A stretch of 64,000 nt of DNA from Chrysomallon squamiferum (taxonomy: Eukaryota > Animalia > Mollusca), in contig CM022667.1 of the NCBI GenBank assembly GCA_012295275.1, positions 13,454,001 through 13,518,000 of the forward strand, read 5' to 3'. Made by a program: the position numbers and the translations under genes. This document shows, in pieces, positions 530 through 63,802 of the stretch (positions are counted from its first letter, which is position 1; each line of letters opens with the position of its first letter). The notes beneath the pieces are model-generated. The model was not told where the DNA came from. It saw nothing but the letters and a program-made list of their open reading frames with translations, and ran no database searches.

Positions 530-2154
530 TTAATTAATTGTTGCTTTAATTTCTACTTTTAGAACAGGCGGAAAAAGTAACATCACACAGTCCTCGTTGA
601 AAATATTTTGAGGTTCGCCGGATCCCCAGTTAAAAAACATTGGCTTAACTCCGTTCTCCCAAAGAAACACGTCTTCTGTAACTACGTCAGTCAGTCCGAT
701 GTATAAGTATTCTTCTGTCTCGAAAGAATAATACAAGAAGATAAATAATAAAAATACCAATCACTACAAAAACAACAACAACAGCAATAATAATAATAAT
801 GATAATAATAATAATAATAATAATAATAATAATAATAACACCAGCAACAACAACAACAATAATAACAATTTAAAGATGTGTCATTTACGTACAACCGGTG
901 AAAACTACCGTATATGTTAGACAAGTTTTTGTTCTAGTTGTTGTAAATCAATATTTATGTTCATACCAATGTTTGCTTGGATGTAGTCACCAACAGCTGT
1001 GTTTTTCTCTTCTGTGTCCAGTACAATCAGTCTTGAACCTATCTGACTGCAGGCGACACGTGCTTCAGCAAATGTTTTCTTATCGCTGAACACTTTGAAA
1101 CAGAGATTCAGTTGGTCCAGATAAACAAACCCATCTTCCACTGGAGAGGAACCTGTCAGGAAATGATAATAATTGCTAAAAAGTTTTTAAAATTATATTT
1201 CTTTTTCAGAATTAAGAATCATACTTATAGTAAAGTCATATCAGGACAGATCTTTGTTACAAGGATAGTTTTAGAAATTTCCTTCCAATCCTACCAATAT
1301 ATATATATCTATCTATCTATCTATCTATCTATCTATCTATCTATATATATATATATATATATATATATATATATATATATATATATATATATATATATAT
1401 ATATATATAGATATAGATATATATATTAAAATTATTGTGTATGTCTGTGTTTAATTAATTTAAAGTACTTGTTTTAATATTTGTGTGTGTGTGCGTGTGC
1501 CTGTAATTTTCTACCTGCACTCAGGTAAAAGTGCGTCCAGCAAGGAGAAGTTGAAAAGCTGCCTGAATTCATCAACCTCAAATAATGCAGACAACAAATT
1601 CCATACACGTTGTACGAAAACCAAACACAGGTAGAATTATTTGCGCATCGTATCCCACAAAGGCCTTGCGATGAAATTTTGTCAGCAGAAGATATGAGAG
1701 CCTGGTTTATCTGAACATCATCAAAATCAGGATTTTTTATCCATATCATTGTCGTGTTGCACCTGTGATAATAATAATAATAATAATAATAATAATAATA
1801 ATAATAATAATAATAATAATAATAATAATAATAATGTTTGTGAATTAGTAAAGATAGATTAGTTTCGTTACATTATAACCATCTCAGAATAATTTGTTTA
1901 TTTTTACCTGCCAAAACCACCACTCTACTATAAATAAAAGAAATTTAACATAAAATAACATTTCTATTTCGTTTGATTTTATTTCATAACAACTGATTTC
2001 TCTTATTGGAATATAAAATAATTATATTCGTTGTAAATTTTATCTCTATCCTCAGATATAGTTATCAATGCATAAAAACAGATATTACCTACCTCTCGTT
2101 ACTATGGCAACATATTACCAACGTTACCAGCAAAATAAATGGTGAATAATCCAT
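530..2154 (-). pseudogene. A1: signal peptide + PAN/Apple + C-type lectin gene with a destroyed CTLD C-terminus
   Basis: Exons 2093-2154 (MDYSPFILLVTLVICCHSNER), 1515-1762, 967-1152 and ~530-714. Exon 4 lacks NTWHD (about 22-nt frameshifting deletion) and ICEKPM*. The exon-3 SCP reads SSP, exon 2 has extra Cys, and the usual exon-4 acceptor is altered. Confidence 0.85.
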
Positions 2155-3389
2155 CTCTCGCGAATATGAAAGAATTTCAACCAAACTGTCCGGTGTAATA
2201 ATTTGTACTACGCAGTGAGTATCTGTATTTGGTTCGCACTGAATATTGATTATTGATTATCTTTCCAGGAGAAGAAAATTCGAATAGAGAAGTCCACGAT
2301 TTGAGACAATGTGTCTGGTGTTATTAATGAGAATATTACCAAATCCCTGATGACAAACAACATTAATTTTTGAACTCTTGCATTATATGCAATTTTACTT
2401 TTTTGTATTACTGACAAAATAATCAATGAAAAATTTCATAATGCAAACAAAGGTCGCTGTATTTTATATAAATGGGTCTTTATATTAACAGAGACGATTA
2501 AATAAACTGTAAAAACATAATTAGGAACAAGTTGTAATCTTTCTTGGTTTACAAGTGTCGACATTTCAGTAGAGCTGTGTGATATAATAAGAATGCTGGT
2601 TGGTTTTGAAAGGATTGATTCATATTTTCTAACATAACAAAATCCCTTACGACACTGACTAGTAGAAAAAGCGTCAGCTAATATGCCGAGAACACGTGTT
2701 TGTTTCAAGTGAAATCCGCATAAATTCACAATAATTTGCAAAAATATCACACGTTTTTTTATGTTATCCAAGTGTTTATTGTTCGAAAAAAGTCCACGAG
2801 ATTTAAGATATCAATAGGTTTATCCTTCATAAGCATTTTAAATCCATGAAGGTTCCATATAGAACTCATATTTCTTTACATGGTACTTTGGCTCCAGATA
2901 ATACCTGGCAATGCAGGGCCAAATGATTTTTGTGTGAGATGGTTGATGTGTTTTCATCCATTGAAACAGGATCTGTGTAGTATCATGTTCTAAACCTGTT
3001 TATATACACGTTTAATATCTGTAGAATCTTTGAGGTATAATAAAGAAGGTAGGTACGTTTGAGCTAATTAATCCTAAAAATAAATTAATGAGTCAAATTT
3101 ATGAATGTTCGCAACATGTTAATAAATAATGCATTTAATATAATACTTATATATTCGTTTAAAACTATATGAGTAACTCAGTGTTTATGTTGCCAAACGA
3201 CTGAAACGAATGACAGTTTCTCCGTAGATTAAGAAGTAAAAATTACAATGAAATTTATTCAGACACAAATTTGTCAATTATTTCATATCAGTGATATCAA
3301 GATATCTTGATCTTATTTTAATCTGTTTTTGCTAGTTTAATAATATAGAATAATAGATAGTAAAACACTGGTTTCGAACTAGATACAAA

Positions 3390-61210: not shown

Positions 61211-61713
61211 AGTCACATGATATTTGTTGAATAAACAAACAAAAAATTAAATTTATTTATTTATTTATATATTTGTTTGTTTTATTTATACGTCCAAGCG
61301 ATTAAAAAAAAAAATGTAATTATCATTATCACCAACCTGTCATTCATTCATTTCTTGATTCTTTCATTCTTTTTATTTTTTTATGAAAAACAAAAATTAA
61401 CAAAATAAAATAAAAACTGTATTTAATTCACTCAGCATTGTTGAGTACACCACAACAAACTGAAACTGTTCAGAATTCAGTACTAAGACTGCAAGCAAAC
61501 TGTACAGAAATAAGCGAATGTGACAAATACAAACAGAAACTGAACAATAAAAATACAACTAAAGAAGAATTGTTTTTTAGTTTATTTATTTAACTGACCT
61601 GGATTACAATTATCATATAAGTCGAGGAAAATCTGCTTGAAGATATGATTTTTTATCATTTTATTTATTTTTTTGTTGTTGTTGTTCTTGGTTGTCAGGT
61701 TCTTACGATTAAT

Positions 61714-63802
61714 TTAGAGTTTTTCACATATATATTTTAAAAGTCTTTCACATACAACATCTGCCCATTTGCTATAACCAGAATAAAATACAGTGCAGTC
61801 TTCATAATCGAGATTATTAGGTTCATTTGCATTCCAGTTTGTATAAATGGCTTTTTCGCCATTCTCCCACACATACGTTTTCTCCTCAACTTCATCAGTT
61901 AATCCGATGTAAAACCTTTCGAGATTTGACCCTGTAAAACAAATGAATGTAAATGTAGTAATAGTAATAGCAGTAGTAGCGGTGGTATAGGAGTACCAAT
62001 AGCGATGAAGCAGCAATAGCAGAGACAGATGCAGGAAAACAAGTAGAAGTGGAAGCAGTGTTAATAGTAATAGTAGCAGAGCTAGTAAGTAGTATTGTTG
62101 TACTGGGAGTAGGTACTAAAAAGCATTCATTGCAGAGCTTTCCAAAGTGAATAACTGCCAGGGAAAGTATAGTTTTTGTTCATGAAATTTGAGGCAGAAT
62201 GAAATTGTGTTTGCTTGAAATTTATGTTTGGTAACAGACAAAATCTGTTGATGTAGGTTTATCGGGTCATACTGCTATCTGATATCGTTAGAGTATGTGG
62301 TCCAAAGTCATAAGTGCATAGCATGGGGACAGTAATGCGAGGTGAATTTGTATATATTTAAATAGACAGGATTGGAAGTGAGGCATTTTGGTGAGATACC
62401 AATAGTGATTATAAAGATATATAACTGCAGTAATACCTGTGGTAGTAGTTTTCGTATTTATAGCAGTAACAATTGTAGCAGTAAAGGTAGTAGTAGTAAT
62501 ACTAATTGTAGTAGAACCAACAGAAGTGACAAAAAAAGTAGTAGTAGTAGCAGTAGCAGTGGCAGTTATTGTTGTCGTAGTAGTTGTAGTAGTAATAGTA
62601 ATACTAACGATCAAATGAAACAAACACATAAATAAATGAATAAATAAATAAATAAATAAATAAATAAATAAAAAGAGAAATAAGAAAACAGTAGACACAC
62701 CTATGTTTGAAAGGTAGCGCGACAGAATTTTGTTTTTTTCTTCCGTGTCTAACACGATCAGTCTTGATCCCAGCTGGCCGCAAGCAACACGTGCCTCAGC
62801 AAATGTTTCAGGATCTTCAGACAACTTGAAGCACAGTGTTCCCAAAAACACGAAACCCTCATCAGTCGGACAGAAATCTATGAAACGAGAACAACTATAT
62901 AACAGTCACTACAATACTAATTTTATATACACAATTATGCACACATCGTTACCGCCGTTATCCCAATAAAATTTTAAAAAATCAAAAAAAAATCAGACGA
63001 TTACAGTATAATGTAAAATACATACTGTTACGATAGAAAAATAAAATTCATTTCACTACCATACAAAGATAAAATTTTAGCTGTTGCCATAAAAAGATGA
63101 ACTTGAACATAATGTTATTCAAAGATCAAATTCAAACAGCTAGTATATAGAGGAAACGATTCAAATGAGACTGTCGCCAACCATAATACAAAATTCAGAA
63201 TGTTACCACTGAAAAGTCATATTATTATTATTATTATTATAATACAAAGGTTAAATTTAGCCTGCTACCTGAAGGAATGTAATAGTGCTTCCAGTTTGCC
63301 GTGTCAGACGTACTGACGTAAGTACCAACCCTCACAGAATAATGGCGACATTTTCCGTTGTCGTAGGCAAACGAAAGGCATTCAGGATTCTTGGTGCAGT
63401 CAGAGCCACAGTGCATCATGGTCTTGACGTCAGTGGCTTCGTATATTTCAGCGTTAGGTGCAGTGACGTAATCATATTTTTCTTTCTCAATCCAAATCCA
63501 TCTGGTGCCAATGCAGCTTCATTGACAGTAAAATAGAACTATTTTCATTACTTGTATTAAATAGTGACATTTAGTAAGATATAATTCAGTTGATGACGTT
63601 AATCTATTTATCATTCTATCAGTTCATCTACTCATTTACAGTATATGTCTATTTGTCTATCTAACTTATGCATACATCCACACTGTTATTCAGTTTCAGT
63701 ATAAAATAAAAAGAGTACGTATATTTATACATACCTGTCTGCCATTTTAGAACACACGAAAACAGCTGACAACAACAGAAACTGGATGAAAGTGTTTTGC
63801 AT
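61714..63802 (-). CDS. C3: secreted PAN/Apple + C-type lectin (EPN/WAD)
   Basis: Exons 63735-63802 (MQNTFIQFLLLSAVFVCSKMAD), 63269-63516, 62701-62877, 61714-61931; GT-AG introns, open frame. Confidence 0.92.

What the first reader, a model, noticed from the sequence alone, without database searches (positions are those of the whole stretch)
530..63802. Dense array of secreted PAN/Apple-C-type lectin genes with a constant scaffold and a variable ligand-binding exon
Seen: at least 13 genes or pseudogenes plus orphan exons in 64 kb, in both orientations, with invariant exon sizes (PAN exon 248 nt in every intact gene) and phases. Exons 2-3 are similar within subfamilies, while the Ca2+ site-2 motif reads EPQ, QPN, EPH, EPN, EPS or ESD and the WND-equivalent reads WHD, WGD, WAD or WCD. 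Established: EPN/QPD and WND set CTLD sugar specificity, and PAN/Apple modules mediate protein or glycan contacts. Inference: a birth-and-death recognition repertoire (innate immunity, mucus/symbiont recognition or biomineral matrix), analogous to FREP/CREP or SpTransformer clusters but with a PAN-CTLD architecture. I cannot confirm from sequence alone that it is undescribed.
Basis: partly seen in the sequence, partly recalled or inferred. Interest (0 to 1): 0.85.

Follow-up and report, generated by a model that had tools for sequence, protein, structure and literature searches.

The report
Snail lectin cluster with hypervariable pockets
A genome, likely a snail's, carries a dense cluster of duplicated genes for probably secreted two-domain lectins whose changes pile up in the loops around the predicted sugar pocket, so it likely works as a fast-evolving set of microbe or glycan sensors; the same protein design is common in molluscs but barely described.

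Summary
The array is real. The window holds 9 intact four-exon genes (signal peptide, PAN, C-type lectin split over exons 3 and 4), one gene with a broken donor, three pseudogenes, decayed fragments and two lone exon-4 copies. All 12 modelled PAN exons are 248 nt.

Within the main subfamily, exon 4 carries about 4-5 times the amino-acid change of exons 2-3, with similar synonymous change at invariant codons. The change sits in the loops around the predicted sugar site. Site models give omega about 5.5 on about 20% of codons (p 8e-8), but significance is lost when rates vary among codons. Gene g12 is a mosaic, and exon 4 shows short-tract recombination. Between subfamilies the PAN exon is as divergent or more, so 'constant scaffold' holds only within subfamilies.

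The architecture is not new: Gigantopelta aegis has an apparently separate expansion with the same loop pattern. Single-copy hits come from Haliotis, Lottia and Mytilus, and papers note it in Biomphalaria and nematodes. This scan saw it before in an oyster (e1-9258790). Expression and ligands are untested. One oddity remains: the lone exon-4 copies are better preserved than the exon-3 stubs beside them.

The parts
530..2154 (-). g01, subfamily A pseudogene; exons 2154-2093, 1762-1515, 1152-967, exon 4 homologous only to about 569 (WxD and last two Cys lost; EPQ)
9921..10301 (+). Decayed exon 3 + exon 4 (stop, frameshift; ESD/WCD)
10891..12512 (-). g02, intact, subfamily C; exons 12512-12445 (GC donor), 12226-11979, 11579-11403, 11108-10891; EPN/WAD
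13399..14994 (+). g03, intact, subfamily B; exons 13399-13466, 13935-14182, 14457-14642, 14777-14994; EPS/WGD
17327..17461 (+). Decayed exon-4 fragment (ESD)
19057..21446 (+). g04, subfamily C pseudogene; exons 2 (19437-19684) and 3 (20201-20377) open, exon 1 out of frame, exon 4 with deletions and frameshift
21956..24366 (-). g05, intact, subfamily B; exons 24366-24299, 23280-23033, 22783-22598, 22173-21956; EPS/WGD
26717..28384 (-). g06, intact, subfamily A; exons 28384-28323, 27884-27637, 27370-27185, 26937-26717; QPN/WHD
29349..30022 (-). g07, subfamily A pseudogene; exon 1 and a damaged exon 2 with a stop, no exons 3-4 found
34230..35716 (-). g08, intact, subfamily A; exons 35716-35655, 35409-35162, 34898-34713, 34450-34230; EPH/WHD
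41866..43553 (-). g09, subfamily A, open frame but intron-1 donor AT; exons 43553-43492, 43054-42807, 42529-42344, 42086-41866; EPH/WHD
44350..44756 (-). o10: lone open exon 4 (about 44570-44350, EPN/WHD, acceptor AG kept) with intron 3 and a decayed exon-3 stub ending at 44728 (donor lost)
44792..45339 (+). o11: decayed exon-3 stub ending at 44822 (donor lost), intron 3, lone open exon 4 (about 45119-45339, QPN/WHD, acceptor AG kept); head to head with o10
47408..49144 (+). g12, intact, subfamily A, mosaic (exons 1-2 like g14, exon 4 nearer g13); exons 47408-47469, 47810-48057, 48501-48686, 48924-49144; EPH/WHD
52463..54447 (-). g13, intact, subfamily A; exons 54447-54386, 53672-53425, 53135-52950, 52683-52463; EPH/WHD; lies in a 5-kb block 97% identical to the g09 block
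55039..56741 (+). g14, intact, subfamily A; exons 55039-55100, 55444-55691, 56098-56283, 56521-56741; EPH/WHD; start codon about 590 nt from that of g13, head to head
60756..61201 (+). Decayed exon 3 + exon 4, duplicate of the 9.9-10.3 kb remnant
61714..63802 (-). g16, intact, subfamily C; exons 63802-63735, 63516-63269, 62877-62701, 61931-61714; EPN/WAD

Best explanation
This is a birth-and-death cluster of genes for probably secreted PAN plus C-type lectin proteins in which amino-acid change piles up in the loops around the predicted calcium/sugar site, likely because selection favours new binding specificities for microbial or other foreign glycans. Shown: gene structure, domain content, turnover by direct and inverted segmental duplication, pseudogenes, exon-4 loop hypervariability, mosaic g12. 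Inferred: each copy is secreted and binds a terminal sugar through the Ca2+ site (E/Q-P-x, E, W-x-D). The long loop, the beta3-beta4 hairpin and the segment after WxD would set which larger glycan is accepted. The PAN domain would add a second contact or a link to partners, and the odd (11th) cysteine may form inter-chain dimers. New pockets likely arise by point change under diversifying selection plus short-tract conversion between copies.
For: Domains. The full-length homologue P0001 folds at mean pLDDT 87.4, and its C-terminal domain matches C-type lectins at Z 21.9, rmsd 1.2 over 122 residues. Hydrophobic N-terminus in all 11 models with an exon 1. Same six genes: dN tree length 0.567 (exon 4) against 0.149 and 0.116 (exons 2, 3), while synonymous variants at invariant codons are equal, 7/34, 12/59 and 11/49. 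M2a vs M1a in exon 4: LRT 32.6, p 8e-8, omega 5.55 on 20% of codons; exons 2 and 3 p 0.85 and 1. The signal holds without the lone exons (p 3e-4), on a star tree, and with double-nucleotide changes (p 5e-4). 0 of 105 neutral simulations (70 with shuffled blocks) reached the observed 31.3; the maximum was 18.2. Loop second positions: 25 changes at 26 sites against 16 at 61 four-fold sites, p 4e-5. All 8 sites with P>0.9 in the concatenated genes lie in exon 4. G. aegis paralogues repeat the pattern: loops 15-38% identical, PAN 45-77%, lectin N-half 42-71%, 10 of 10 pairs. They fall on the other side of a 71/89 branch. Mosaic g12: 33:1 vs 10:21 informative sites, p 2e-8. PHI-like test p 0.0004; 1 of 200 no-recombination simulations reached p<=0.001. 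A Biomphalaria PAN + C-lectin pair lies at a schistosome-resistance association peak (PMC13712769, section 26 read).
Against: With site-to-site rate variation the omega>1 class is not significant (p 0.12, and 0.5 with multi-hit; p 0.81 and 0.96 on concatenated genes), and M1a plus rate variation fits exon 4 better than M2a. Loop boundaries were drawn after seeing per-codon variability. The codon models are my own code, not codeml, on 6-8 sequences. None of the 12 open exon-4 copies has the Asn of WND, and 5 have His in place of the Asn of EPN, so Ca2+-dependent sugar binding is not assured. In bivalves these motifs do not reliably predict calcium dependence (PMC12842671, passages). Nothing here ties the genes to immunity or symbiosis rather than mucus or shell: C-type lectin domains were found in shell proteomes of vent snails (PMC11871041, one passage).
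Confidence: 0.68

Rival explanations
1. The loops are merely tolerant: relaxed constraint plus patchy conversion from diverged copies elsewhere (or locally high mutation) makes them variable, with no selection for new specificity.
For: Rate-variation models remove the omega>1 signal and fit a 6-9x fast class at omega about 1. Short-tract recombination is detected. Run X1 holds further diverged exon-4 copies (33 differences over 236 nt, 27 over 189 nt).
Against: Four-fold sites in exon 4 are not fast (1 change at 13 sites). Third positions stay fixed at some of the most variable codons, e.g. 37 and 62. Loop first and second positions change more than third positions (24, 25, 15). G. aegis repeats the loop pattern, though relaxed loops could do that too.
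Confidence: 0.17
2. The proteins are matrix components of shell, scale or mucus (perlucin-like) that bind minerals or host glycoproteins, not microbes.
For: Some G. aegis homologues are auto-named 'perlucin-like'. C-type lectin domains occur in shell proteomes of C. squamiferum and G. aegis (PMC11871041, one passage; PAN is not mentioned in its main text, supplements not opened). His-rich sites (EPH...WHD) could suit other metals (inference).
Against: Structural matrix roles give no clear reason for rapid turnover and loop hypervariability. The names are automatic best-hit labels and vary within the family.
Confidence: 0.1
3. The copy number is inflated by uncollapsed haplotypes.
For: The g09 and g13 blocks differ at only 148 of 5031 sites, 2.9%. 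An X1 contig laid over g09 exon 1 carries g13's state at 4 of 5 differing places.
Against: All other subfamily-A pairs differ far more (exon 4 9-30%, introns mostly over 10%). Three subfamilies are 27-80% identical by exon, and g03/g05 are inverted. At most g09/g13, perhaps g12/g14, could be allelic; I put that local case at about 25%.
Confidence: 0.05

Closest known systems
Mollusc PAN_1 + Lectin_C proteins (G. aegis XP_041377129, XP_041376832, XP_041376822, XP_041375600, XP_041375127, XP_041376763; Haliotis cracherodii XP_071083729; Mytilus edulis XP_071143548; Lottia gigantea XP_009044979)
   Same: Same order and size (about 235-245 aa). Window exon 3 is up to 67% identical to XP_041377129. 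Six G. aegis copies share one 59.9-Mb contig and have the same variable loops. Three ESM Atlas clusters of 88, 326 and 73 members, mostly Mollusca, carry both families in part of their members.
   Different: Window genes group apart from G. aegis genes (71/89). They have WHD/WGD/WAD where G. aegis mostly keeps WND. The database proteins carry only generic names. In the Mytilus protein Lectin_C is below cutoff; the Lottia cluster representative showed only a weak PAN_1 hit, with the lectin half judged from the alignment.
Biomphalaria glabrata gene models 41/42 at LG11L (PMC13712769, section 26 read)
   Same: [quoted passage not shown]
   Different: A pair, not a 13-member array; the authors suggest a gene fusion; no functional test in that section; sequences not compared here.
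Nematode class IV CTLD genes, 1-2 CTLD + 1-2 CW/PAN-3 (16 in C. elegans; PMC5297725, passages and table)
   Same: [quoted passage not shown]
   Different: Window exon 2 scores best as PAN_1; PAN_3 stays below cutoff. Homology of the whole architecture was not tested and may be convergent.
Gastropod FREP/CREP and sea-urchin SpTransformer clusters (recalled, no call)
   Same: Clustered, fast-turnover secreted recognition proteins diversified by duplication and conversion.
   Different: No IgSF or fibrinogen domain. No evidence here of somatic diversification.

Membership tests
C-type lectin domain (CTLD) | Lectin_C profile and fold | tested here: met
   Exon 4 passes the cutoff in 6 of 6. PDB profile hits are MBP, MRC1, SP-D and others. 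Homologue model Z 21.9.
C-type lectin domain (CTLD) | Long-form six cysteines and WIGL-type motif | tested here: met
   Three Cys in exon 3, three in exon 4, and IGLTD invariant in 12 of 12 open exon-4 copies.
Ca2+-dependent carbohydrate-binding CTLs | Canonical site-2 ligands EPN/QPD, E, WND (recalled from MBP-A) | tested here: inconclusive
   E/Q-P, E and D are kept in 12 of 12; Asn of WND in 0 of 12; EPN in 3 of 12. WHD and QPN occur in Ca2+-dependent bivalve lectins; EPH and EPS have no whole-word hit in that review's main text.
Ca2+-dependent carbohydrate-binding CTLs | Measured sugar binding | not testable with these tools
   Needs recombinant protein.
PAN/Apple module | PAN_1 profile above cutoff; C-x3-C-x5-C...C core | tested here: met
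   7 of 7 exon-2 copies. Core Cys invariant in 37 of 37 rows. All 25 PDB sequences at E<=10 are kallikrein, factor XI, HGF or microneme proteins, best E 1.6e-4 (that these carry apple/PAN domains is recalled).
PAN/Apple module | PAN fold by structure comparison | tested here: inconclusive
   Exon-2 model pLDDT 55.8; Foldseek best E 2.7 (Sarcocystis SML-2), VIA best Z 3.1. The homologue's N-domain models at pLDDT 82-95, but both searches were filled by the lectin domain.
Long apple domain (kallikrein/factor XI type) | Third disulfide closing the domain ends (recalled) | tested here: not met
   Exon 2 has five Cys and none near its C-end; mature proteins have 11 Cys.
CREP/FREP/GREP | N-terminal IgSF domain(s) (recalled) | tested here: not met
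   Exon 2 is PAN; no Ig family hit at E<=1 in 16 exon translations.
Secreted proteins | Signal peptide, no membrane anchor | tested here: inconclusive
   N-terminal hydropathy maximum 2.4-3.5 in 11 of 11 models with exon 1, and proteins end just after the last Cys. SignalP was not available.
Alternative-cassette systems (Dscam, protocadherin, lola type) | Constant exons spliced to alternative variable exons | not testable with these tools
   No RNA holder was listed. Each intact exon 4 except o10 and o11 has its own exons 1-3.

The most novel reading that the evidence does not exclude
The two lone exon-4 copies are live cassettes. After losing exons 1-3 they were kept as alternative last exons (o10 could be reached from g13 exon 3, 8.4 kb upstream on the same strand) or as donors that paste new loop patches into intact genes. 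That would give a snail lectin repertoire with a constant PAN front and swappable sugar pockets, possibly multiplied by disulfide-linked heterodimers. Basis: the exon-3 stubs and donors differ at 12 of 60 family-invariant sites against 16 of 266 in the adjoining exon 4s (p 0.0015). Frames, cysteines, Ca2+ residues and acceptors are kept. The junction is present in run X1, whose o11 allele is also open. Short-tract recombination is detected in exon 4. Against: framework changes in the two exons are 10 non-synonymous to 4 synonymous, near the neutral ratio, and passive refreshing by conversion explains the contrast without function.
Probability: 0.12. Interest if true: 0.75.

Novelty: new member of a known kind. 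Interest (0 to 1): 0.42.

Why it matters
PAN plus C-type lectin genes appear to be a mollusc-wide, repeatedly expanded family hidden under generic names such as 'macrophage mannose receptor 1-like' and 'perlucin-like'. My 10 literature searches found only one passing mention for molluscs, at a schistosome-resistance locus. This cluster gives a ready panel of near-identical frames with different pockets, so it allows a clean test of how loop sequence sets glycan preference in invertebrate lectins. Because its closest named relatives come from a symbiont-bearing vent snail, it also offers candidates for symbiont or pathogen discrimination. The general phenomenon, tandem lectin families with selected binding loops, is familiar.

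Tried and rejected
1) Expression: no RNA holder listed. Contigs of three RNA runs of one study laid only on repeats and introns, with no exon joints. This is no evidence either way.
2) PAN homodimer prediction: no answer, score 0.03, alignment not used. No evidence either way.
3) My first idea, that exons 2-3 are homogenised by gene conversion, came from pairwise dS being twice as high in exon 4 and introns being more diverged. I dropped it as the main cause: synonymous variation at invariant codons is equal across exons. AU tests between exon trees were mixed (2 of 6 cross-tests rejected), and the exon-2 excess between g09 and g13 was marginal (p 0.05).
4) Fold searches of the exon-2 model gave nothing significant (low-confidence model).
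5) A word-indexed homologue search with exon 2 found nothing; the profile search did.
6) No whole genome was held, so family size and flanks are unknown. X1 depth was not used as copy number.
7) Literature: searches returned 0 papers; some searches returned listings, of which five papers were opened. Subscription papers and supplements were not seen, so a description of this family may exist there.
8) SignalP and codeml were not available.
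Full report
Observation. Six-frame translation and tblastn of the window against itself recover repeated exon trios on both strands. Splice-site modelling gives a four-exon gene: exon 1 (62 or 68 nt, hydrophobic leader, phase 2), exon 2 (248 nt in 12 of 12 models, phase 1), exon 3 (186 or 177 nt, phase 1) and exon 4 (218 or 221 nt to the stop). Nine genes are intact (236-239 aa), g09 has an AT donor, and g01, g04 and g07 are broken. 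Two lone open exon-4 copies and several decayed fragments complete the array. Three subfamilies are present: A (g01, g06, g07, g08, g09, g12, g13, g14, o10, o11), B (g03, g05) and C (g02, g04, g16). Self-alignment shows how it grew: a direct duplication 38964-44023 / 49485-54937 (2.9% mismatches), an inverted one for g03/g05, and a direct one about 51 kb apart for g02/g16 with their neighbouring remnants.

Domains. Exon 2 passes the Pfam PAN_1 cutoff in 7 of 7 copies tested. Exon 3 matches the first third of Lectin_C below cutoff in 3 of 3, and exon 4 the rest above cutoff in 6 of 6. A profile of exon 2 finds only kallikrein, factor XI, HGF and microneme proteins in the PDB (25 sequences at E<=10, best 1.6e-4). 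The exon-2 model alone was poor and its fold searches uninformative. The full-length homologue P0001 modelled at pLDDT 87.4 with a clear C-type lectin fold. Mature proteins have 11 cysteines. The extra one near the N-terminus is absent from several homologues, so it is likely unpaired within the chain; a dimer role is inference only.

Relatives. A profile search of 1.84 billion representatives gave 174 hits at E<=0.001. I scanned 35 of the 150 listed, chosen for short length or few PAN repeats. Four had both PAN_1 and Lectin_C above cutoff, and three more had PAN_1 above cutoff with Lectin_C at E<0.001 below it. Three of the four best single-PAN hits are Gigantopelta aegis proteins, the other is unnamed. 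A follow-up search found 7 G. aegis proteins, 6 with both domains. Haliotis, Mytilus and Lottia proteins align over the full length, and the ESM Atlas shows mollusc clusters of 88, 326 and 73 members with both families in part of the members. The window is therefore likely from a gastropod related to G. aegis; the species was not determined. In a 22-protein tree, window and G. aegis proteins lie on either side of one branch (71/89; 94% of bootstrap trees), which suggests separate expansions with moderate support. Papers: PMC13712769 (passages and section 26) notes a PAN/Apple + C-lectin pair in Biomphalaria at a resistance peak. PMC5297725 (passages, table) lists 16 CTLD + CW/PAN-3 genes in C. 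elegans. PMC7895826 (passages) reports more C-type lectins in G. aegis than in C. squamiferum, with no PAN-lectin mention in the passages returned. PMC11871041 (one passage) finds C-type lectin domains in both shells. PMC12842671 (passages, table) shows motif variation is usual in bivalve lectins. No supplements were opened.

Where the variation is. For six subfamily-A genes, pairwise amino-acid identity is 82-99% in exon 2, 87-95% in exon 3 and 61-99% in exon 4. Maximum-likelihood dN tree lengths are 0.149, 0.116 and 0.567; dS 0.42, 0.29 and 0.59 with bootstrap s.d. 0.06-0.13. Synonymous variants at amino-acid-invariant codons are equally frequent in the three exons, so exon 4 is not simply older. 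My codon site models (own code) reject neutrality in exon 4 only: LRT 32.6, omega 5.55, 20% of codons; M8 vs M8a p 1e-8. The best-supported codons are 10, 39, 45, 49, 50, 57, 60 and 62: one before the long loop, one in the loop after EPx, three in the strand and hairpin after EDC, and three after WxD. By recalled CTLD anatomy most of these flank the sugar site; I could not read coordinates from the model to confirm. The result survives dropping the lone exons, a star tree and double-nucleotide changes, and neutral simulation with heavy block shuffling (0 of 105). It does not survive site-to-site rate variation (p 0.12-0.96). A parsimony count favours selection (loop second positions 25/26 against four-fold sites 16/61), but the loop limits were set after seeing the data. 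G. aegis paralogues show the same loop-centred divergence. Between window subfamilies PAN is 27-52% identical, so the scaffold is constant only within a subfamily.

Recombination. g12 shares exons 1-2 with g14 (33 to 1 informative sites), but its exon 4 is nearer g13 (21 to 10; p 2e-8). A PHI-like test on eight exon-4 copies gives p 0.0004 at 30 nt but 0.36 at 60 nt. 1 of 200 no-recombination simulations reached p<=0.001 and 16 reached 0.05. This points to short conversion tracts.

Lone exons. o10 and o11 face away from each other about 550 nt apart. Each keeps intron 3 and a stub of exon 3 with a dead donor, which fits one deletion that removed exons 1-3 of two head-to-head genes. A contig of run X1 spans the junction with no difference (44631-44884). 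X1 differs from the window at four sites in o11, two synonymous and two not, none a stop, by my reading. The stubs are more decayed than the exon 4s (12/60 vs 16/266, p 0.0015; exonic sites only 8/46, p 0.014). Use as cassettes, or passive refreshing by conversion, would both explain this; framework changes run 10 non-synonymous to 4 synonymous. No RNA was available to decide.

Verdict. A real, well-formed recognition-type lectin cluster of an architecture that is common in molluscs and little described. Selection on the pocket loops is likely but not proven. Ligand, tissue and role are inferred. The scan noted the same architecture earlier in an oyster window (e1-9258790).

Noticed in passing
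window 5800-6300, 30900-31300, 37300-37800: Decayed Tc1/mariner-type transposase fragments (HTH_Tnp_Tc3_2: one above cutoff, two below); 4678-6188 and 37329-38912 are inverted copies.
   Followed up: partly
window 36185-36364 +: DUF4817 helix-turn-helix fragment, E 9e-14, probably from a transposon.
   Followed up: partly
window 32221-32550 +: Stop-riddled frame resembling a piggyBac-type transposase C-terminus (resemblance recalled; no Pfam hit for the 38-aa open piece).
   Followed up: partly
window 3886-3907 +, 7540-7470 -, about 40565 -, about 51157 -: Four remnants of a subfamily-B-like exon 1 with upstream sequence; the one at 3.9 kb runs into a (GA)n tract.
   Followed up: partly
window 27961-28030 -: Partial duplicate of the first 70 nt of exon 2 inside intron 1 of g06; it could offer a competing acceptor.
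   Followed up: no
window 48924/48930, 56521/56527, 26937/26931: Tandem in-frame acceptors 6 nt apart at exon 4 of g12, g14 and g06, allowing 236- or 238-aa forms.
   Followed up: no
window 54447-55039: g13 and g14 start codons lie head to head about 590 nt apart, a candidate shared promoter.
   Followed up: no
subfamily A exon 4 (e.g. 56521-56741): Five copies have EPH...E...WHD, i.e. two His plus three carboxylates at the metal site; other divalent metals may be preferred (speculation).
   Followed up: no
P0093, P0158 (G. aegis): Related proteins insert extra modules between PAN and the lectin part (Sushi in P0093; a longer Cys-rich insert in P0158).
   Followed up: no
run X1 on window 44350-44585 and 48912-49100: Contigs with 33 and 27 differences point to more exon-4 paralogues or alleles than the window holds.
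   Followed up: no
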